Source: an uncultured Collinsella sp. (GTDB lineage: Bacteria; Actinomycetota; Coriobacteriia; Coriobacteriales; Coriobacteriaceae). Taken from it: a stretch of 64,000 nucleotides of DNA. A program made the position numbers and the translations under genes. The notes below the pieces were generated by a model. The model was not told the origin of the DNA. It did not search any database and worked only from the letters and a program-made list of their open reading frames with translations. Below are positions 4,943 to 60,996 of the stretch, in pieces; positions within the stretch are counted from its first letter, which is position 1; the number at the start of each line of letters is the position of its first letter. The stretch lies in NCBI GenBank assembly GCA_905199545.1, contig CAJKGW010000001.1:144606-208605 (forward strand). The letters are read 5' to 3'.

Positions 4943-5094
4943 AGCGTGTTTTCCCTAGGGGGAACACGCTTGGGCTGTCTCCAGTCGTGTTTTCCCTAGG
5001 GGGAACACGCTCAGACACACCTAGCCGTGTTTTCCTTAGGGGAATCACAGCAGATTTGTTTTTATCCACGTTGGCCCTTAAGGGAATCACGCTT
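4943..5094. repeat. Four tandem copies (period ~41-42 bp) of a palindromic unit AGCGTGTTTTCCCTAGGGGGAACACGCT, progressively degenerate
   Basis: Direct reading. Copies start at approximately 4943, 4985, 5026 and 5067. The array lies between convergent ygiQ and the CPBP gene. The last copy overlaps the CPBP 3' end. Confidence 0.65.
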
Positions 5095-5995: not shown

Positions 5996-6049
5996 GCCAA
6001 CCTCCTCAAAACCGTTCCCTAGTTCTACCACAACTCGGCAGAGAGCTGA

Positions 6050-6080
6050 TCCCATGGGGACGGAGGAAAACGGATCACTT
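6050..6080. repeat. Copy 1 of a ~28-bp direct repeat CCCATGGGGACGGAGGAAAACGGATCAC
   Basis: Direct reading. A second copy sits at 6448-6478. Confidence 0.7.
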
Positions 6081-6279
6081 ATTGATGAGAATCGGGCGCA
6101 GTGCCAAAGGCCCCGTTGGGCGAAATGTCGAACGGAAAGGTGCCGCAGCGATTAAACGCGGCGATAAACATGCGGATGGCGTTGGACGGCGTGGTGCCCA
6201 CGAGTTGGGTTGCCGCCGCGAAGGCCGCCTTTTCCTCGGGCAAGACCTTCGCGACAACCGGGGTCATGTGTTCTGCCAT
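6079..6279 (-). CDS. RelB/DinJ-family antitoxin-like small protein (COG3077)
   Basis: 66 aa, MAEHMTPVVAKVLPEEKAAFAAATQLVGTTPSNAIRMFIAAFNRCGTFPFDI. This fits the DinJ pattern (DxxLK...LGLTxSxAIRMFL...IPF). An AAGGAAG SD lies upstream. Confidence 0.6.
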   Translation of the reverse strand: MAEHMTPVVAKVLPEEKAAFAAATQLVGTTPSNAIRMFIAAFNRCGTFPFDISPNGAFGTAPDSHQ

Positions 6280-6447
6280 GGCGCTTCCTTTTTGAAACGA
6301 CGGTGGTGCGGATAGATGCGGGCCACGCGGCTGGGCGACGGGCTGTGAAGGCAACCCGATTGGCCCGCATCTGGAGTTTGTTTCTGCGGCGTTGGTATTA
6401 CTTGGTATCCCTAAGTATTACCCCCCAGATAGAATACCACAGCCGAC

Positions 6448-6478
6448 CCCATTGGGACGGAGGAAAAACGGATCATTT
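6448..6478. repeat. Copy 2 of the ~28-bp direct repeat CCCATTGGGACGGAGGAAAAACGGATCAT
   Basis: Direct reading. Each copy contains a CCCATGGG or CCCAATGGG palindrome and a GGAGGAAAA stretch. Confidence 0.7.
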
Positions 6479-13847: not shown

Positions 13848-14120
13848 ATGTTGTTGTTCCTTATCTGCACGCGCAAGGGGCACGGCATGCGGCCGCGCGG
13901 GGCGTGCTTGGTAGTGCGCTAATACATACAAAAACAGGTGCGCACAGAGAGGACGTTGCTCAGCACGCTGGCGATCGCTTTGGCAGCCCTATCACGCGCC
14001 GTCCAGACGCAGCAGCTCTAAGCGATGGAGCAGATTCGCCGCCGGTTAGTATACCCGCACTCCGTATGCACCCACGTAAACCACAGATGACGAGGCGGAC
14101 GGGGCGGACCTGGGCCAATT

Positions 14121-14257
14121 GTCTCAATCTGTAACAGATACTCAGCAAAAACCGGTCCAGCTGTTATAGATCGAGACAAACTCAAACCTCGCAAAACAAA
14201 ATCTCGATCTATAACAACTAGAGGTCATTTTCCCTGCTAGATGTTACAGATTGAGAT
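14121..14257. repeat. Family A hairpin array, locus 1 (2 units plus a degenerate arm)
   Basis: Arms gtctcaatctgtaacag / ctgttatagatcgagac and tctcgatctataacaa / tgttacagattgagat. The loop of unit 1 is in reverse orientation (aaaaccgg). Confidence 0.8.
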
Positions 14258-14333
14258 GTTTGGCAGGGACTGCCAACGATTGAGCAGCCGCCCTCATCTG
14301 TAATGAAAAGTCATACATTCCAACTATTACTAG

Positions 14334-17433: not shown

Positions 17434-17443
17434 TTGGGGCATT

Positions 17444-17525
17444 GGGGACGGACTGCTTTGCACCTTCTTGGTGCATCGGGGACAGGTATGTTTGCACCAC
17501 CTTGGTGCAGATTGACCTGTCCCCC
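17444..17525. repeat. Family C motif, tandem pair (GGGGACnG...TTTGCACCnnCTTGGTGCA) with an enclosing GGGGACAGG...CCTGTCCCC stem
   Basis: Direct reading immediately after the csoR stop. It probably also acts as the terminator. Confidence 0.6.
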
Positions 17526-18186: not shown

Positions 18187-19557
18187 CTACGCCACACCGT
18201 CGCGGGCGAGCTCCTCAGCCAGCGCTTCGGCAGGCATGGCCATAATCGCGTCGAGCTCGGCGTCCACCTCGGGAATACGCTTCACCTTGAGTTTGCGCAC
18301 CAGATCACCACGGCACATCACGTACGTCGGCTCACGCAGTGCGCACAGATCATCGAGCGGGTTCTTGCGCGTTACCAAGATATCGGCAGCCTTGCCGCAC
18401 TCGATCGTACCGGTCTCGCCGCCCAGCCCCAGCAGCTCGGCATTGATCTGCGTAGCCGTATGCAGCGCAAAGGCGTTGCTCACGCCCACGTACTTGGCAA
18501 AAAAGGCAACCTCACGCCACATGTCGTACTGCGTCACAAACGGGCAGCTCGAGTCCGTGCCCAGGCCCACCTTAACGCCAGCTTCCAGTGCGGCACGGGC
18601 GCTCTCGATGATGCCCGAACACACAATGTCGCCGTTCTTCTTTTGCGTGTCGGTCGAATGGGTCTTCTCCGGATCGAGCAGCACAAACGGCAGCGCGGGG
18701 CTGATAGTGCAGGTAACGCTGGGCGCACGCCCCTCAAGCTGCGTGCCCGCGGCGCCGCGGTACAGTTCCAAGATCTCGGGAGTCATCGGGGCACCGTGCT
18801 CGATCGTATCGACGCCGGCCTCAAGCGCGGCCTTCACGCCCTCGGTGCTCTCGACATGAGCCATAACCGGCAGGCCCACCTCGTGCGCAGCCTTGCACGC
18901 CGCCGCGGCAACCTCGACCGGCATGCGCAGCACGCCCGGCTCACCTACTTCGGTCGCGTCGAACACGCCGCCCGTCACGAACAGCTTGATGACGTCGGCA
19001 CCGCGCGCATACAAGTCACGCACTTGTTCGGCCGCCTCATCGGGGGTATCGGCGACCTGCGCGAACAGCCCCGCACCGTGACCGCCCGGCACCGTGACAC
19101 CCGTTCCCGGCGCCACCAGACGCGGACCCTGATACTTGCCGGCGTCGATAGCGTTGCGCACGGCAATATCGGCAAACAGCGGGTCACCCGCACCGCGCAC
19201 CGTGGTCACGCCGCTTGCCAACTGCTGCTGGGCGCTGCCCTTAAGAATATGGCGCACGATGGCGCGCCCCACGGGATTATCGAGCTTCTTCATCAGCGCG
19301 CCCGCATCGCCGGCCGAGACAGGCTTGCCCGAGCCGCACAGGTGCACATGCATATTGATGAGGCCGGGCATGAGGTACGCGCCGGCCAGGTCGATGACCT
19401 CGGCACCTGCAGGCGCCTGCGCCACAGCACTCGGCCCCACCCACGTGATGACACCGCGCTCAACGGCCACGGCCATATCGGGTTGCGGCTCCATATGCTC
19501 CGAGCCATCCAGGACGGTCGCATTGATAAACAACGTGGAACGATCGGCAGACGCCAT
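18187..19557 (-). CDS. Amidohydrolase-family metal-dependent hydrolase
   Basis: GLINMHVHL (HxH), conserved H and D ligands, and an amidohydrolase fold pattern. Start MASADRS with a GGGAGGAG SD. Confidence 0.8.
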   Translation of the reverse strand: MASADRSTLFINATVLDGSEHMEPQPDMAVAVERGVITWVGPSAVAQAPAGAEVIDLAGAYLMPGLINMHVHLCGSGKPVSAGDAGALMKKLDNPVGRAIVRHILKGSAQQQLASGVTTVRGAGDPLFADIAVRNAIDAGKYQGPRLVAPGTGVTVPGGHGAGLFAQVADTPDEAAEQVRDLYARGADVIKLFVTGGVFDATEVGEPGVLRMPVEVAAAACKAAHEVGLPVMAHVESTEGVKAALEAGVDTIEHGAPMTPEILELYRGAAGTQLEGRAPSVTCTISPALPFVLLDPEKTHSTDTQKKNGDIVCSGIIESARAALEAGVKVGLGTDSSCPFVTQYDMWREVAFFAKYVGVSNAFALHTATQINAELLGLGGETGTIECGKAADILVTRKNPLDDLCALREPTYVMCRGDLVRKLKVKRIPEVDAELDAIMAMPAEALAEELARDGVA

Positions 19558-19706
19558 ATCGAGCTCCTCCCTCACGAGCAACTTGAACATTTGTCCATTA
19601 TCACCCAGTGCGGCAGGGTTGCTGCGGACATATCGGTTAACGGAGAAAGGATGAGACACGGAGAACGGAATGCATTGCAGTCCCATCCCAGCGACATCCG
19701 GGAAAT

Positions 19707-19923
19707 GTCTAGATCTGTAACAGGTAGACCGGGTTTTAGCAGCCAGATGTTACAGATCGAGATCTTTCGGCACCGCGTCCAACCTTTGTCTCAATCTGTA
19801 ACAAGTAGACAGGTTTTCGGCCTCTAGATGTTACAGATCGAGATATTTTAGCGGCAGCCAACCTTCTGTCTCGATCTGTAACAGTTGCGAGGCCAAACGG
19901 CCCCTTGTTGTTACAGATCGAGA
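19707..19923. repeat. Family A hairpin array, locus 2 (3 units, period ~80 bp)
   Basis: gtctagatctgtaacag...tgttacagatcgagat; gtctcaatctgtaaca...tgttacagatcgagat; gtctcgatctgtaacag...ttgttacagatcgagac. Confidence 0.85.
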
Positions 19924-19965
19924 CAAACTCGGCAGGAACAACCACATCCGCGTCAGTTACACCCC

Positions 19966-21042
19966 TCAGCGCCCATACCACTGCCGCCTCCACTGCTCAG
20001 CCAAATCGGCCCACTGCGGAATGCCCGCCAGTCTCATCTTTTCAGCCAGCTTCCCCGGATTCTTGAGCTCATCAAACGTAAACCTCAGCACCTTATGTCC
20101 GAGCATCGTCAGATGAGACTCTCGCTGACGTTCTGCCACGAACGGGTCGACCGACTCCCGACCCTCGTCGTTCTGTAAGGCATACTTTCCCTTTCCATCG
20201 AGCTCGCCAATCACGCACGTCCCGTCCTCGAGCCTCCAGAAATAATCAACGCGAAACACTTGGCTCGAATCAAGCGGGTCACGAAACTCCACCTGCAACT
20301 CTGGCACCGGAAAACCGTATGCAATAAAGAATGCCCGGAACCGAGACTCGCCACCGTTTTCGGACAGCCCGTCCGCATGCGACGCAATCACCTGAGCTCT
20401 GCGATATCCGCGTCTGCCCTCGCAATCGGCCTGGAGCCGTTCGCAGAGGTCGTCGCGCGATATGCCCTTCGCCCGCAGCGCAGAATCGGCGATCGCCAGA
20501 CCATACGAAAACGGCGCACGCAGCAGACAGTCCTTCACCGTGCGCCAAAACGGCGTCACTCGCACGCCGTCGACGCGCTCAAGCGCACCCGCCGCCTGCG
20601 GACGCAACAGCCGGCATCCTGCACTCAGCGGCACCGAGCAACCTGTCTTAACAAGAAATCGCGGCCCAAGCAGATCATTTGGCACCTCCAGACCCCACAA
20701 AAGTGCCGCGTCGTAACCCCAAAACGCCCAATCGGGATGAAACTCCGCAAGCCCTTTGATGGTCCGCAGCGCTCGCTCCGTCGGCGTCAACGCATCCCAA
20801 TCATGCTGAAAACAGAACAGGTGCGACTCAGGCTCCGCGATATCGTCGGTTCCCACATGGCGCCGCAGCCACATGAGCTCGGCATTGTCGTGCGTCACAA
20901 GCAGCACGCCTAGTTCAGCCGCCTCCGTGAGCCTGGCAAGCATCCTATTCCGCGCCAACGTGTTGCGAGCCGTATGCTTGTGTTTGAGAACGGTATTAGA
21001 CACTTCCATCACCACCACATCGGACAAATGGACCATTGTCAC
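19966..21042 (-). CDS. DUF559 (REase-like) domain protein with an AbiEi-like N-terminal region
   Basis: The C-terminus ESRFRAFFIAYGFPVPELQVEF...VDYFWRLEDGTCVIGELDGKGKY...TMLGHKVLRF matches the DUF559 pattern that is common in Actinobacteria. Confidence 0.65.
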   Translation of the reverse strand: MTMVHLSDVVVMEVSNTVLKHKHTARNTLARNRMLARLTEAAELGVLLVTHDNAELMWLRRHVGTDDIAEPESHLFCFQHDWDALTPTERALRTIKGLAEFHPDWAFWGYDAALLWGLEVPNDLLGPRFLVKTGCSVPLSAGCRLLRPQAAGALERVDGVRVTPFWRTVKDCLLRAPFSYGLAIADSALRAKGISRDDLCERLQADCEGRRGYRRAQVIASHADGLSENGGESRFRAFFIAYGFPVPELQVEFRDPLDSSQVFRVDYFWRLEDGTCVIGELDGKGKYALQNDEGRESVDPFVAERQRESHLTMLGHKVLRFTFDELKNPGKLAEKMRLAGIPQWADLAEQWRRQWYGR

Positions 21043-21063
21043 CGTTGCCTCCGCTGATAAACG

Positions 21064-21199
21064 TCTTGATCTGTAACAGTTAGACGTTCTCCAGGCCCCT
21101 AAACGTTACAGATTTAGACAAACCAGCGGCGCCCAGGTATTCGTCTCGATCTGTAACAGGTAGACCGGTTTTTTGTCCCTAAACGTTACAGATCGAGAC
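21064..21199. repeat. Family A hairpin array, locus 3 (2 units)
   Basis: gtcttgatctgtaacag...cgttacagatttagac; gtctcgatctgtaacag...cgttacagatcgagac. Confidence 0.85.
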
Positions 21200-21239
21200 A
21201 TAAAGGCAGAAGGCAAGGCAGGCGACAACCGTCCATCCC

Positions 21240-21947
21240 CTACTCCCATTCCTGTTCGTAGATGTTGAGCGACTTCACATACCGCCCCTGGGCACCCATG
21301 ATGTCGCGGACCAGGCGCAAAAAGAAGCTGATGCACGAGGTGTCGAAACCGTCCTCCAGGTCCTCGGGATGCACCGAGCCCGGCCCGTCGACCGTCGTGT
21401 CGCTCAGGCGCGCGATGTCATACAGGTAGAGCTGCCCCGCCGTCAGCCAGACATCGTCGACGCACGCGAGTCGCACCGCAATCGCACCATCGTTCCAGCG
21501 CTCCTTTTGCACGATATGTGGGTCGTAGACGTCAAAGCGACGGTCGGTGCGCGTGTCCTTCAGCACGACCATGCCAGTCGCGGGATCCTTGTCCAAAATG
21601 CCAAAGCGCGAGAAATACTGCGTGTCACGCACCTGCTTAAGTCGCCCGAGCGAAGCAGGAGAAATTGACGCTGGCGGCTCGTCCACATACAGCTCCAACA
21701 GCGTCTTGCCGTGGTAATAGGGGCGCTCAAACAGCAGCCAATCGGTAAACGCCATGTTGTAGGCCATGATTTCGTTTTGAGATGGTTCCTCGCAATAGCT
21801 GAGCCACGGATCGACGATAATCTCGAACTGCTCGCGCGCCGGCTCCAGAAATTGAAACTTCCGCAGCATCCAAAAGTGAGCCATGTCGGCAATATCGTTG
21901 CCGACGGCCTCGGCCAGCTGCGCTCGATCAAAAACTTGGTCAGTCAT
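21240..21947 (-). CDS. Hypothetical protein
   Basis: 235-aa ORF with coding-like composition. No recognisable motif. Confidence 0.5.
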   Translation of the reverse strand: MTDQVFDRAQLAEAVGNDIADMAHFWMLRKFQFLEPAREQFEIIVDPWLSYCEEPSQNEIMAYNMAFTDWLLFERPYYHGKTLLELYVDEPPASISPASLGRLKQVRDTQYFSRFGILDKDPATGMVVLKDTRTDRRFDVYDPHIVQKERWNDGAIAVRLACVDDVWLTAGQLYLYDIARLSDTTVDGPGSVHPEDLEDGFDTSCISFFLRLVRDIMGAQGRYVKSLNIYEQEWE

Positions 21948-28842: not shown

Positions 28843-29060
28843 CATCTCAATCTGTAACAGGAAGACCCAATTTTGGCGCCTAGATGTTACAGATTGAGAT
28901 TTTCTGCGGAGCGGTTTTGGTTTGTCTCGATCTGTAACACGAAGGGCCGGTTTTGGCGGCCAGCTGTTACAAATCGAGATTTTCCATAGGACCATTTCTT
29001 CCTGTCTCGATCTGTAACACCTAGGCCCAATTTCCATCCCTAGTTGTTACAGATCGAGAC
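28843..29060. repeat. Family A hairpin array, locus 4 (3 units)
   Basis: catctcaatctgtaacag...atgttacagattgagat; gtctcgatctgtaacac...ctgttacaaatcgagat; gtctcgatctgtaacac...ttgttacagatcgagac. Confidence 0.85.
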
Positions 29061-29196
29061 ATTTCGGCAGCCCCCTTCACCATCCCATTCAAATAGAACA
29101 ATTTTGTTAGTCTTGGTTAACTTTTAAGCTTAAACGGGTATCCTTTGCGGCGTCAAGCAAACGGCACGCACACCGTGCCAGATCAAGGAGGCCCCT

Positions 29197-31302: not shown

Positions 31303-31328
31303 TGGGGCGGGGCACCTACCCAGGCAAA

Positions 31329-31547
31329 CGTCTCAATCTGTAACATCTAGACACGCTTTTAATATCTAGATGTTACAGATCGAGATTATTCCGAGGGACA
31401 GCTCCGTTTGTCTCAATCTGTAACAAGTGGACCCAATTTTCACCGTTAGATGTTACAGATTGAGACCTTCTGCCGGACGGTTTTGGTTTGTCTCGATCTG
31501 TAACAGGAAGACCCGTTTTGAGCCGTTAGACGTTACAGATTAAGACA
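31329..31547. repeat. Family A hairpin array, locus 5 (3 units)
   Basis: gtctcaatctgtaacat...atgttacagatcgagat; gtctcaatctgtaacaag...gatgttacagattgagac; gtctcgatctgtaacag...cgttacagattaagac. Confidence 0.85.
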
Positions 31548-31691
31548 AAAGGTCGGCCGGACTCACAACAGACAGGATCGGCCAACAGCAACCGTGATCC
31601 CTTGGGGGCGGAGAAAAAGGGTCCCGGCCGGGATATCCGACCGGGACCCTTGGACAGAGCTATATGTTGCCGTGAGCCGCGTGCCGACGAG

Positions 31692-31835
31692 CTACTCCTC
31701 GACGAGCTCAAACTGATCGGGACCGACGCCGCAGACCGGGCACACGTAGTCCTCGGGCAGCTCGGGCGTGTCGACCTCAACCTCGTAGCCACAAACGATG
31801 CACACGAACTTATACGTCTTCTTCTCCTCAGCCAT
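31692..31835 (-). CDS. Rubredoxin
   Basis: CIVCGY...CPVCG double CxxCG motif. GAGGAG SD. Confidence 0.8.
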
Positions 31836-59820: not shown

Positions 59821-59955
59821 TCGGCCAGTCATTGGGGACGTTCTTAAACGACTAGTCATTGGGGACGTTCTTCGCGAAAGCCACAAGGACTGTCCCAACC
59901 TGCCGGCACTTGGGGACGTTCCCAAACTGCCGGCAGGAAAGGAACGTCCCCAAAT
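59821..59955. repeat. Family B locus. It holds two direct copies of GACTAGTCATTGGGGACGTTCTT(AAAC) plus a TTGGGGACGTTCC...GGAACGTCCCCAA hairpin with a CTGCCGGCAG loop palindrome
   Basis: Direct reading between two convergent Cof genes. Confidence 0.75.
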
Positions 59956-59961
59956 GCCAGT

Positions 59962-60756
59962 CTAGGCGAGGCTCTCCAGCATGCGGCGGAGCTCCTGTTG
60001 GACGGCGTGGTCGCGGTTGCACCCCACCACACGATCGGCAACGGCCTTGAGCGCAGGGCGCGCGTTTTCCATCGCGCAGCCCGTGCCGACAAAGCGAATG
60101 ATCTCGTAGTCGTTCATCGAGTCGCCAAACGCCATGACCTCGTCGCGTCCAATGCCGTAATGCTCCGCGAGCTGCGCGATACCCGAGGCCTTCGACACAC
60201 CAGGCTGCATGGCATCGATCCACGCGTTGCCCGAAGGCGCAAAAGTAAAGAGCTGACCAAGTTCGCGCTGTAGCACGTACGCACTGTCCATAACCGCACT
60301 GTCGTCGCAAAAGATACTCGCTTTGATGATATTTACGCTGGGATCGGGCAGCTCCCAAATGCGCTCGGCATTGGGAAGGTCCTTATCGACCTCACGCACG
60401 AACTTGCACTCGTCATCGAGCAGGAAGGACTTGGTTCGGTCAAAGAGCGCAAGATGCAGATTGGGAAACGTCCTGACGGCTTGGGCGAGCCTTCGAATCG
60501 CCAGGTGGGAATACACCTCACGGTCTACCATCTTACCGTCGGCGTAGACCTGGGCGCCGTTAGCGGCGACAAAGTCCATCTTGTCGCGAACGGGCGCAAA
60601 GAACTCGCACAGGCGATCGTAGCGACGACCTGACGATGCGGCGAAATGCACGCCATGCTCGCGTAGCGCCAGAATCAGTTCGTAGGTCTCGGGAGGCACC
60701 TGGCCGTTTTCGTCAAGCAGTGTGCCGTCCATATCGGATGCAATCAGTTTAAACAT
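59962..60756 (-). CDS. Cof-type HAD-IIB phosphatase
   Basis: SDMDGTLL, GDSMNDYEI. Confidence 0.8.
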   Translation of the reverse strand: MFKLIASDMDGTLLDENGQVPPETYELILALREHGVHFAASSGRRYDRLCEFFAPVRDKMDFVAANGAQVYADGKMVDREVYSHLAIRRLAQAVRTFPNLHLALFDRTKSFLLDDECKFVREVDKDLPNAERIWELPDPSVNIIKASIFCDDSAVMDSAYVLQRELGQLFTFAPSGNAWIDAMQPGVSKASGIAQLAEHYGIGRDEVMAFGDSMNDYEIIRFVGTGCAMENARPALKAVADRVVGCNRDHAVQQELRRMLESLA

Positions 60757-60917: not shown

Positions 60918-60996
60918 AAAGAGTGTCCCCGATGACTAGTCGTTTAAGAACGTCCCCGATGACTAGTCGTTTAAGAACGTCCCCGATGACTAGTCG
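60918..60996. repeat. Family B locus in the opposite orientation, 2.5 tandem copies of GTTTAAGAACGTCCCCGATGACTAGTC
   Basis: Direct reading. Reverse complement of the 59825-59872 unit. It abuts the ade stop. Confidence 0.75.

What the first reader, a model, noticed from the sequence alone, without database searches (positions are those of the whole stretch)
19707..21199. DUF559/AbiEi-like gene exactly bracketed by two Family A arrays
The 358-aa DUF559 (PD-(D/E)xK-like) gene at 19966-21042 has a 3-unit array 43 bp past its 3' end and a 2-unit array 22 bp before its 5' end. The next gene downstream (21240-21947) is an unannotatable hypothetical protein. Nuclease-like genes inside repeat brackets suggest either repeat-mediated gene capture or mobility, or tight insulation and regulation of a defence-type gene.
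Basis: partly seen in the sequence, partly recalled or inferred. Interest (0 to 1): 0.6.

Follow-up and report, generated by a model that had tools for sequence, protein, structure and literature searches.

The report
Nuclease gene embedded in own hairpin repeats
A Collinsella gene for a DNA-binding nuclease sits between tandem arrays of an 80-bp hairpin repeat, and distant relatives of the gene are bracketed by their own, different hairpin repeats, which suggests the gene and its repeats co-evolve as a pair, much like REP elements and their transposases but with a different enzyme.

Summary
The 358-aa gene X (19966-21042, minus strand) lies between a 3-unit array (19706-19925) and a 2-unit array (21062-21200). 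Each unit is two inverted 17-nt arms around a 25-nt loop, with an 80-81 bp period.

The bracket is not a local accident.
- All 148 evaluable Collinsella loci keep at least one unit on both sides. Counts run from 1 to 5 and vary independently on the two sides.
- Homologs at 34-58% identity, in other genomic contexts, are bracketed by palindromic units of unrelated, lineage-specific sequence. Six of 10 contexts pass the flank test, against 2 of 124 control genes (Fisher p=8e-7).
- In 450 kb of a C. aerofaciens chromosome, 5 of 7 arrays lie within about 10 kb of X (Poisson p=8e-8).
- One X-less array in the window sits exactly where another lineage carries its X.

X has a predicted winged-helix domain plus a Vsr/DUF559/I-Bth0305I-type PD-(D/E)xK nuclease domain with invariant catalytic-type residues. 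It is absent from the phage and viral collections searched, the only full-length plasmid hit is a chromosome piece, and it matches no defence model. It is not an AbiE system.

Best reading, confidence about 0.45: a vertically inherited nuclease with its cognate hairpin repeats, RAYT/REPIN-like in logic but with a different enzyme and mostly local spread. Binding and cleavage are inferred, not shown.

The parts
19966..21042 (-). Gene X: 358 aa. Predicted winged-helix region (about aa 29-101), a middle helical domain, and a C-terminal PD-(D/E)xK nuclease domain of the Vsr/DUF559/I-Bth0305I type (about aa 230-340).
   Evidence: ORF. AlphaFold model with pLDDT 91. Foldseek matches 3r3p (probability 0.98) and 3hrl. 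Invariant residues E232, D266, E280, D282 and K286 in 51 homologs. Family of 4785 clusters at 50% identity. Lowest GC3 of 33 window genes.
19706..19925 (.). Three-unit hairpin array just past the 3' end of X and upstream of the amidohydrolase gene. Units at 19706-19764, 19787-19845 and 19867-19925.
   Evidence: The units fold as DNA hairpins with z-scores of -4.5 to -7.2. Copy number is 1-5 in relatives.
21062..21200 (.). Two-unit hairpin array 19 nt upstream of the X start codon, between hyp235 and X. Units at 21062-21120 and 21142-21200.
   Evidence: Copy number is 1-5 in relatives.
21240..21947 (-). hyp235, the conserved upstream neighbour of X at this locus only. The model shows a helical N-terminal domain plus a beta-barrel that weakly resembles an OB fold.
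   Evidence: No family match. It is 50% and 43% identical to the upstream neighbours in L091 and L181, overlaps the X start in L181, and is absent from other contexts. Model pLDDT 88, with only weak OB-fold matches.
14120..14258 (.). Two-unit array of the same family without X, upstream of copA.
   Evidence: The site is conserved in related species at about +6.8 kb from X.
28843..29061 (.). Three-unit array of the same family without X, between gltB and a histidine-phosphatase gene.
   Evidence: The site is conserved in related species at about -7.9 kb. Its linker sequence is shared with the array at 31329.
31329..31547 (.). Three-unit array without X, directly upstream of the rubredoxin - flavin reductase - smpB cluster. 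This is the site where lineage L190 carries its X homolog between degenerate arrays.
   Evidence: In strain TSDC17.2-1.1 this array is interrupted by an IS200/IS605 element.
18187..19686 (-). Amidohydrolase gene, the downstream neighbour of X. It is context, not part of the system.
   Evidence: Pfam Amidohydro_1, E=1e-38.

Best explanation
X and the hairpin units form one co-evolving pair. The units are the cognate DNA sites of the X protein.

Proposed mechanism:
1. X binds the conserved 17-nt arms through its winged-helix domain.
2. Its PD-(D/E)xK domain nicks or cuts at or near the hairpin or cruciform.
3. Repair by recombination among units changes array copy number and keeps the arms of a genome uniform.
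4. The same process seeds new arrays, mainly at nearby intergenic sites.
5. Now and then it relocates or deletes the gene, so X is always found embedded in its own repeats and X-less arrays mark other sites.

In logic this is the RAYT/REPIN arrangement: a single-copy, vertically inherited enzyme gene flanked by its own palindromic repeats, which are sometimes tandemly amplified. Here the enzyme is a Vsr/DUF559-type nuclease rather than a HUH tyrosine transposase, and spread is mostly local.

Shown: the anatomy, the conservation of the bracket, the lineage-specific unit sequences, the clustering around X, the alternative positions of X, the nuclease fold and the conserved catalytic-type residues.

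Inferred: binding, cleavage and the recombination-based mode of spread.
For: 1. The bracket is kept in all 80 genome loci and in 148 of 148 evaluable loci. Counts run from 1 to 5 units per side and vary independently (r=0.12).

2. Distant homologs are bracketed by other palindromes. The E-values below come from blastn of the upstream flank against the downstream flank.
- L091, 58% identity: 81-82-bp arrays with arms GTGCGTATCTCAGAC.
- L092, 45%: 64-nt unit, E=5e-24.
- L177, 38%: four arms on each side, E=1e-6, and none elsewhere in 11 kb.
- L182, 34%: E=5e-19.
- L184, 36%, same context as L182 but an unrelated unit: E=3e-16.
- L186 (C. tanakaei), 38%: 95-nt unit, E=3e-31.
- L190, 42%: degenerate arrays on both sides.

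3. Controls: 2 of 124 other genes reach E<1e-5, against 6 of 10 contexts for X (Fisher p=7.8e-7, Mann-Whitney p=2e-5).

4. In 450 kb of C. aerofaciens NZ_OY725717.1, 5 of 7 arrays lie within -9.4 to +9.5 kb of X (Poisson p=7.8e-8). In the window, all 5 arrays lie in 17 kb around X.

5. X in L190 sits at the site that carries the X-less array 31329-31547 in the window. X in L188 sits near copA. In L181 the hyp-X module is inverted at the same locus.

6. Twelve of the 17 arm positions are 91-100% constant across 613 distinct units, while the loops and linkers vary.

7. The fold is a PD-(D/E)xK nuclease of the Vsr/DUF559/I-Bth0305I clade, with E232, D266, E280, D282 and K286 invariant in 51 homologs at 30-56% identity. 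That clade is defined in PMC3424549.

8. X is single-copy in the 900-kb record, and no relatives are found in the viral collections. This matches the published RAYT features: flanked by REPINs, specific to one REPIN type, single copy, with tandem REPINs of up to five copies (PMC3337134).
Against: - There is no biochemical or expression evidence.
- Three of the sampled contexts lack a two-sided bracket. L188 has one upstream palindrome only. L175 has unrelated hairpins on the two sides. L181 has an array downstream only.
- Arrays persist at X-less sites, including two that are 98 and 164 kb from X.
- Arm mismatches are not compensated, so nothing demonstrates selection for the hairpin itself.
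- The same window holds another repeat family (core GGGGACG) that brackets a HAD hydrolase gene with no nuclease involved. Bracketing can therefore arise without a cognate enzyme.
- A natural deletion removes X and both arrays in two metagenome strains, so X is dispensable.
- The sample of distant contexts is small (about 10) and confined to Coriobacteriia. A Tsukamurella relative shows only short CCCGCGGG palindromes.
Confidence: 0.45

Rival explanations
1. Regulatory reading. X is a DNA-binding regulator, an AbiEi-like autorepressor. The palindromes are its operators or bidirectional terminators that insulate a potentially toxic nuclease gene. The extra arrays nearby are operators of a small local regulon (copA, gltBD, Nramp, amidohydrolase).
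For: There is a winged-helix N-terminal region, and AbiEi_4 is weakly matched in 3 of 51 homologs. UniRef names a homolog 'AbiEi family antitoxin domain-containing'. The arm sequence is conserved rather than the pairing. Several arrays lie in promoter-side intergenic regions. Arms and protein change together between lineages.
Against: It does not explain the copy downstream of the gene in almost every lineage, the different positions of X, or the X-less array in a convergent gene junction (31329-31547). Stems of 17-36 bp with 10-27-nt loops and copy numbers of 1-5 are unusual for operators. Catalytic-type residues are invariant, which a pure regulator would not need. No canonical terminators were detected.
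Confidence: 0.2
2. Ordinary reading. The arrays are generic REP/MIRU-like intergenic repeats that expand by slippage and recombination and accumulate in long spacers. X is a bystander and the bracket is a coincidence fixed in the Collinsella ancestor.
For: Other array sites (-7.9 kb, +6.8 kb) are as conserved among species as the two at X. Arrays exist without X. Another repeat family brackets a HAD hydrolase gene in the same window. With 5 arrays among about 45 spacers, an adjacent pair somewhere in the window is not rare (my estimate is about 0.35).
Against: It cannot explain why homologs in six other lineages and contexts are bracketed by unrelated units that occur nowhere else in their 7-21-kb contigs. 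It also cannot explain the roughly 50-fold enrichment of arrays around X in 450 kb, or X sitting at an array site in L190.
Confidence: 0.12
3. Passive cassette. X is cargo in a small mobile cassette. Its palindromic ends are substrates of some other recombinase or transposase, for example an IS200/IS605-type Y1 enzyme, Xer, or host recombination between repeats. The X-less arrays are MITE-like derivatives or footprints.
For: Nine different contexts occur among 12 lineages. The flanking units are in inverted orientation in L186 and L182. The hyp-X module is inverted in L181. IS200/IS605 is present in the species and inserted into one array.
Against: No recombinase gene travels with X in any context. 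The IS200 is an ordinary two-copy IS with its own end hairpins and is absent from the window. X is never found on the plasmids, phages or viral contigs searched. X is vertically inherited at one site in at least 563 species genomes. It does not explain why this one gene family is the cargo every time.
Confidence: 0.1
4. Defence or toxin-antitoxin reading. This is either an AbiE-type or other anti-phage nuclease, or a type III-like system in which the upstream tandem repeats are an RNA antitoxin of the nuclease.
For: It is a nuclease fold with tandem repeats immediately upstream of the start codon in the Collinsella aerofaciens group. Source annotation labels relatives AbiEi-like.
Against: PADLOC, PHROGs and NCBIfam give nothing. 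There is no AbiEii neighbour. The surrounding genes are housekeeping genes, not a defence island. In other lineages the upstream element is a single unit 240-370 nt from the start, and an equal copy lies downstream. The fold is not ToxN/AbiQ-like.
Confidence: 0.05

Closest known systems
RAYT with REP/REPIN/BIME elements (Bertels & Rainey 2011, PMC3116915, PMC3337134)
   Same: A single-copy, vertically inherited enzyme gene is flanked by its own palindromic repeats. Each gene lineage has its own repeat sequence type. A unit is two inverted arms around a spacer. Tandem arrays reach about five units. The elements are intergenic.
   Different: The enzyme is a winged-helix plus PD-(D/E)xK (Vsr/DUF559-type) nuclease, not a HUH/Y1 transposase. 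There are few copies (7 arrays in 450 kb) concentrated within about 10 kb of the gene, not hundreds genome-wide. The arms are not themselves small REP hairpins and carry no GTAG or CGTC tag at their ends.
Homing endonucleases of the Vsr-like/EDxHD family, e.g. I-Bth0305I (PMC3239194)
   Same: This is the best structural match of the catalytic domain (3r3p, probability 0.98). The architecture is a DNA-binding module plus a PD-(D/E)xK nuclease. The gene changes position among sites that share a recognisable sequence.
   Different: X is not in an intron or intein and not in phages. It is flanked by complete repeat units rather than by a split target. It is fixed at one site across hundreds of species.
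IS200/IS605 insertion sequences
   Same: The gene is flanked by similar subterminal hairpins rather than classical short terminal inverted repeats.
   Different: There is no Y1 transposase or TnpB. X is single-copy. The hairpin units are tandemly amplified and also occur on their own.
AbiEi antitoxin of type IV toxin-antitoxin/abortive-infection systems
   Same: It has an N-terminal winged-helix region of the AbiEi_4 kind in some homologs. AbiEi proteins bind inverted repeats (my own knowledge, not tested here).
   Different: There is no AbiEii nucleotidyltransferase partner. The C-terminal domain is a nuclease fold. There is no defence-model match.
MIRU-type intergenic VNTRs of mycobacteria and BOX elements (my own knowledge)
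   Same: These are intergenic tandem repeats of 40-100 bp whose copy number varies between strains at fixed loci.
   Different: Those repeats are dispersed genome-wide and are not known to be tied to one flanked gene.

Membership tests
Pfam DUF559 (PF04480) / Vsr-like PD-(D/E)xK clade | Match to the family HMM above the gathering score | tested here: not met
   E=0.039, 14.2 bits against a cut-off of 20.6, covering aa 302-335 only. None of 51 homologs matches at E<=0.01.
Pfam DUF559 (PF04480) / Vsr-like PD-(D/E)xK clade | Vsr/DUF559-type fold with conserved acidic and basic active-site residues | tested here: met
   Foldseek matches 3r3p (probability 0.98, TM 0.63 on the target) and 3hrl. These are the structures that define the clade in PMC3424549. 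E232, D266, E280, D282 and K286 are invariant.
AbiE type IV toxin-antitoxin system (AbiEi antitoxin) | AbiEi_4 N-terminal domain | tested here: inconclusive
   There is no hit in the window protein. Three of 51 homologs match at E>=5e-4.
AbiE type IV toxin-antitoxin system (AbiEi antitoxin) | Adjacent AbiEii/DUF1814 nucleotidyltransferase toxin gene | tested here: not met
   The neighbours are hyp235 and an amidohydrolase. No context has such a partner. A real AbiEi/AbiEii pair lies elsewhere in the chromosome. PADLOC gives no match.
RAYT/REPIN (REP, BIME) | Associated gene is flanked by its cognate palindromic repeats and is single copy | tested here: met
   There is one copy in the 900-kb record.
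RAYT/REPIN (REP, BIME) | Associated gene encodes a HUH/Y1 (IS200-like) transposase | tested here: not met
   X has no Y1_Tnp match and a PD-(D/E)xK fold. The only Y1_Tnp gene nearby in a related strain is a two-copy IS200 inserted into an array.
RAYT/REPIN (REP, BIME) | Repeats dispersed genome-wide in tens to hundreds of copies | tested here: not met
   There are seven arrays in 450 kb, five of them within about 10 kb of X.
Homing endonuclease gene | Resides in an intron or intein, or is free-standing in a phage, with presence/absence polymorphism at a cleavable target | tested here: not met
   X is a chromosomal intergenic gene present in 148 of 148 close relatives. No phage or viral relatives were found. 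Cleavage cannot be tested here.
Type III toxin-antitoxin (ToxIN-like) | ToxN/AbiQ-family endoribonuclease preceded by tandem repeats that encode the RNA antitoxin | tested here: not met
   PADLOC gives no match. The fold is PD-(D/E)xK. Repeats also lie downstream and at other sites. Rfam gives no family.
Integron cassette (attC) | IntI integrase nearby and attC core sites RYYYAAC...GTTRRRY at the outer ends of the palindrome | tested here: not met
   No integrase appears in any context. GTAAC/GTTAC lie at the inner ends of the arms, next to the loop.

The most novel reading that the evidence does not exclude
X founds a second, independently evolved class of 'repeat-associated' enzymes. It would be a single-copy, vertically inherited PD-(D/E)xK (Vsr/DUF559-type) nuclease of Actinomycetota that recognises, cuts and thereby propagates and homogenises its own hairpin repeats by break-induced gene conversion. 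It would hop locally between repeat sites. This would be the RAYT/REPIN relationship reinvented with a different catalytic fold, and it would give a function to part of the very large, uncharacterised 'AbiEi-domain/DUF559' protein family.
Probability: 0.3. Interest if true: 0.85.

Novelty: new variant of a known kind. Interest (0 to 1): 0.62.

Why it matters
REP-type repeats are common in bacterial genomes, but only one enzyme family, the RAYTs, has been tied to them. For most repeat families no agent is known.

A second kind of enzyme-repeat pair, built on a restriction-endonuclease-like fold, would matter in three ways. It would show that this kind of partnership evolved more than once. It would offer a testable function for a large family of unannotated 'DUF559/AbiEi-like' proteins (4785 clusters at 50% identity). 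It would also explain strain-variable tandem repeats in Collinsella, an abundant human gut genus whose assemblies visibly break around this locus.

The arrays are also ready-made strain-typing markers of the VNTR kind.

Tried and rejected
- The genome contigs and metagenome-contig scans returned only relatives at 79% identity or more, because the best 80 hits are kept. They settled conservation within Collinsella but gave no distant contexts.
- Rfam found no family for the units, only chance miRNA-like hits below threshold.
- PADLOC, NCBIfam and PHROGs found nothing for X or hyp235.
- A profile search of PDB sequences found nothing.
- Covariation in the stem was uninformative. Most arm positions never vary, and the two that do (the CpG positions) are not compensated.
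- An IS200/IS605 tnpA next to an array in strain TSDC17.2-1.1 was considered as the RAYT of this family and rejected. It has two identical copies and its own end hairpins, it interrupts an array that is intact in the window, and its second copy has no Family A arms nearby.
- No pseudogene remnants of X lie beside the X-less arrays.
- The Tsukamurella plasmid homolog showed only short CCCGCGGG palindromes and was not informative.
- hyp235 is not a universal partner of X.
- The blastn count of array 'places' in the 900-kb record proved ambiguous, so 450 kb were scanned directly instead.
Full report
**What is there**

The window is from a Collinsella aerofaciens-type genome with GC 0.607. Gene X is a 358-aa ORF on the minus strand at 19966-21042, with a GGAGG ribosome-binding site before its GTG start.

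On its 3' side lies a three-unit tandem array at 19706-19925. On its 5' side lies a two-unit array at 21062-21200. A unit consists of:
- a 17-nt arm, TGTCTCGATCTGTAACA;
- a 25-nt loop;
- the reverse-complement arm;
- a 21-22-nt linker before the next unit.

Across 161 loci the arm-to-arm offset is 42 nt in 822 of 844 cases, and the offset to the next unit is 38-39 nt. The arm core occurs 28 times in the window against 2.07 expected. Twenty-six of those hits make 13 units in five intergenic arrays: 14120, 19706, 21062, 28843 and 31329. Single units fold as DNA hairpins with z-scores of -3 to -7.

**The repeat**

Among 613 distinct units, arm positions 3-5 and 8-16 are 91-100% constant, while loops and linkers vary. 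The only variable arm positions are the CpG of TCGA. They change C to T or G to A without compensation (63% paired). So the data show conservation of arm sequence, not proof of selection for pairing.

Rfam has no matching family. No canonical terminators or excess promoters were found around the gene.

**The protein**

Sequence libraries barely recognise X:
- Pfam DUF559 is below threshold.
- AbiEi_4 matches weakly in 3 of 51 homologs.
- PADLOC, NCBIfam, PHROGs and PDB sequences give nothing.

X nevertheless belongs to a large family of proteins of about 330 aa: 4785 clusters at E<=1e-3, with full-length matches at 34-58% identity.

A confident model (pLDDT 91) shows a winged-helix-like N-terminal region, a helical middle domain and a C-terminal alpha/beta nuclease domain. 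The best structural matches of that domain are the catalytic domain of the homing endonuclease I-Bth0305I (3r3p, probability 0.98) and the DUF559 protein NGO0050 (3hrl). TnsA and other PD-(D/E)xK enzymes follow. 3r3p and 3hrl are two of the three structures (with Vsr itself, 1cw0) that define the Vsr/DUF559 clade (PMC3424549).

E232, D266, E280, D282 and K286 are invariant in 51 diverse homologs. This argues that the nuclease is active.

X has the lowest GC3 of the window's genes: 0.67, against a mean of 0.78.

**Close relatives**

At least 563 species-level genomes, all Collinsella or Coriobacteriaceae, carry X. The gene order gltD - hyp235 - X - amidohydrolase is conserved.

In all 148 loci with enough flanking sequence, both spacers hold arrays. 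Counts are 1-5 units per side and are uncorrelated between sides (r=0.12). The other array sites, at about -7.9 kb and +6.8 kb, are equally conserved. Within this clade alone, then, nothing singles out X.

**Distant relatives are the decisive evidence**

I looked up contigs for cluster representatives. I chose them only by identity level and contig length. I compared each gene's upstream flank with its downstream flank by blastn, and did the same for every other gene on the same contigs.

| Locus | Identity to X | Context | Flanks of the X homolog |
|---|---|---|---|
| L091 | 58% | same synteny as the window | 81-82-bp-period arrays on both sides, but with arms GTGCGTATCTCAGAC(A) |
| L092 | 45% | ParA / FAD-oxidoreductase | one 64-nt palindromic unit on each side, 93% identical, E=5e-24, absent from the rest of the 11.9-kb contig |
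| L177 | 38% | upstream of tmk/holB | four arms CTGTGCGCTTTGGGAACA on each side, none in the following 10 kb |
| L182 | 34% | DUF4012 / PGM / SIS | 68-nt unit on each side, E=5e-19 |
| L184 | 36% | same as L182 | 84-nt unit of entirely different sequence, E=3e-16 |
| L186 (C. tanakaei) | 38% | LysR / YbaK | 95-nt unit on each side, E=3e-31, plus a third copy 6 kb away |
| L190 | 42% | next to rubredoxin / smpB | degenerate arrays of AGCGGGCGGATTTC on both sides |

The exceptions are:
- L188 has one upstream palindrome only.
- L175 has unrelated hairpins on the two sides.
- L181 has an array downstream only.
- L093 has a weak 57-nt repeat.

Counting independent contexts, 6 of 10 X genes reach E<1e-5, against 2 of 124 control genes (Fisher p=7.8e-7, Mann-Whitney p=2e-5).

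The two control hits are in the window itself and involve a different repeat family (see 'Seen in passing').

**Arrays cluster around X**

The plasmid collection holds a 900-kb record, NZ_OY725717.1, filed as 'plasmid 6' of C. aerofaciens TSDC17.2-1.1. It is plainly a chromosome piece: it carries ribosomal protein operons, rpoBC, recA and dnaE.

A direct scan of 450 kb found seven arrays. Five lie between -9.4 and +9.5 kb of X. The other two are 98 and 164 kb away. The Poisson probability of that cluster is 7.8e-8. The window shows the same pattern: five arrays within 17 kb around X, and none in the other 47 kb.

**X changes place and arrays mark the places**

- In L190, X lies directly upstream of rubredoxin - flavin reductase - smpB - TPR - RNB. 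In the window the orthologous site (31303-31694) holds the X-less three-unit array.
- In L188, X lies next to ROK - copA - csoR of the same neighbourhood.
- In L181, X is at the window's own locus, but the hyp-X module is inverted, fused to its upstream gene, and has an array on one side only.
- In total, nine contexts were seen among 12 lineages.
- No remnants of X lie beside the X-less arrays in the window.
- X is single-copy in the 900-kb record. It is absent from IMG/VR and from phage and plasmid collections, apart from weak partial hits.

**Interpretation**

The simplest account of all this is that X and the hairpin units are a co-evolving pair. The facts it must cover are a nuclease gene always embedded in lineage-specific palindromes, units concentrated near the gene, tandem amplification, uniform arms within a genome, and gene position shifting among repeat-bearing sites.

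I think X most likely binds the arms and nicks or cuts there. Recombinational repair among units would then drive copy-number change, homogenisation, local seeding and occasional relocation or loss of the gene.

This reproduces point by point the published hallmarks of RAYT/REPIN systems: flanking by REPINs, one REPIN type per RAYT, single copy, and tandem REPINs of up to five (PMC3337134). Two defining features fail. The enzyme is not a HUH/Y1 transposase, and the repeats are few and local rather than genome-wide. So I file it as a new variant of that kind, not as a member.

Binding, cleavage and the mode of spread are inferences. My confidence is about 0.45.

**Rivals**

- *Regulator with operators or insulators (0.2).* This fits the winged helix and the conserved arms. 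It does not fit the downstream copies, the moving gene, or the invariant catalytic residues.
- *Coincidence with generic intergenic repeats (0.12).* The distant contexts and the clustering contradict it. It is kept alive by the GGGGACG family, which brackets a HAD hydrolase gene without any nuclease.
- *Passive cassette moved by another enzyme (0.1).* No associated recombinase is found. The IS200 seen in one strain is an ordinary IS that has inserted into an array.
- *Defence or toxin-antitoxin readings (0.05).* These fail every test available here.

**hyp235**

The neighbouring gene at 21240-21947 is a narrow family restricted to Collinsella and close relatives (79 clusters). It accompanies X only at this locus. 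Its model (pLDDT 88) has an N-terminal helical domain and a beta-barrel with weak OB-fold-like matches. That is suggestive of nucleic-acid binding but not established.

**Seen in passing**

Two metagenome strains carry an in-frame fusion of hyp235 residues 1-107 to the amidohydrolase from about residue 224. The junction is at a shared (K/E)QVRD microhomology. This is a natural deletion of X and both arrays. X is therefore dispensable, and these strains are a natural test of what happens to the remaining arrays.

A second repeat family with core GGGGACG brackets a HAD hydrolase gene and a RelB-like ORF in the window.

Noticed in passing
window 59827-59872 and 60925-60996 (also 17434-17509, 6044-6077, 6441-6475, 59900-59960): There is a second repeat family with core (A)T(T/C)GGGGACG. 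Its 27-nt tandem units bracket a HAD hydrolase gene (59962-60756, minus strand) in inverted orientation, with E=8e-19 for the upstream flank against the downstream flank. A 35-nt copy lies on each side of a RelB-like ORF (6079-6354). The motif occurs 5 times against 0.2 expected.
   Followed up: partly
window 4945-5042: A 41-nt-period tandem repeat (2.4 copies) is made of the palindrome CGTGTTTTCCCTAGGGGGAACACG. It lies between two genes and is a third small repeat type.
   Followed up: no
L191 32698-33571 (NZ_OY725717.1 422698-423571), corresponding to window 31329-31547: In strain TSDC17.2-1.1 an IS200/IS605 element (tnpA, Y1_Tnp E=7e-40) sits inside the array that is intact in the window, leaving half a unit. 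An identical tnpA copy lies at 533435. The hairpin arrays seem to be insertion targets for this IS.
   Followed up: partly
proteins P0392 and P0393 (metagenome contigs of 18 and 23 kb, not retrievable here): These are in-frame fusions of hyp235 aa 1-107 to the amidohydrolase from about aa 224, joined at a shared (K/E)QVRD microhomology. They represent a natural deletion of X and both flanking arrays in two strains.
   Followed up: partly
arm positions 6-7 of all Family A units (e.g. window 19792-19793, 28848-28849): The CpG of the TCGA inside the arm is the only hypervariable arm position. It changes C to T or G to A and is not compensated on the partner arm. This would fit cytosine methylation and deamination. 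The arm also contains GATC.
   Followed up: no
NZ_OY725717.1 (whole record): The record is filed as 'plasmid 6' of C. aerofaciens TSDC17.2-1.1, but it carries ribosomal protein operons, rpoBC, recA, dnaE, tuf and a BREX system. It is a chromosome piece. Most contigs that carry X are only 2-6 kb long, so assemblies seem to break around this repeat-rich locus.
   Followed up: partly
L181 3652-5929: At the same copA...gltD locus, another lineage has the hyp-X module in the opposite orientation. The hyp gene overlaps the X start by 4 nt, there is no amidohydrolase, and a called 172-aa ORF runs across the repeat array and is probably spurious.
   Followed up: partly
L188 14838-15155: The flanks of a csoR-like gene share a 22-nt match (E=1.4e-4). 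This is the only control gene outside the window with any flank similarity.
   Followed up: no
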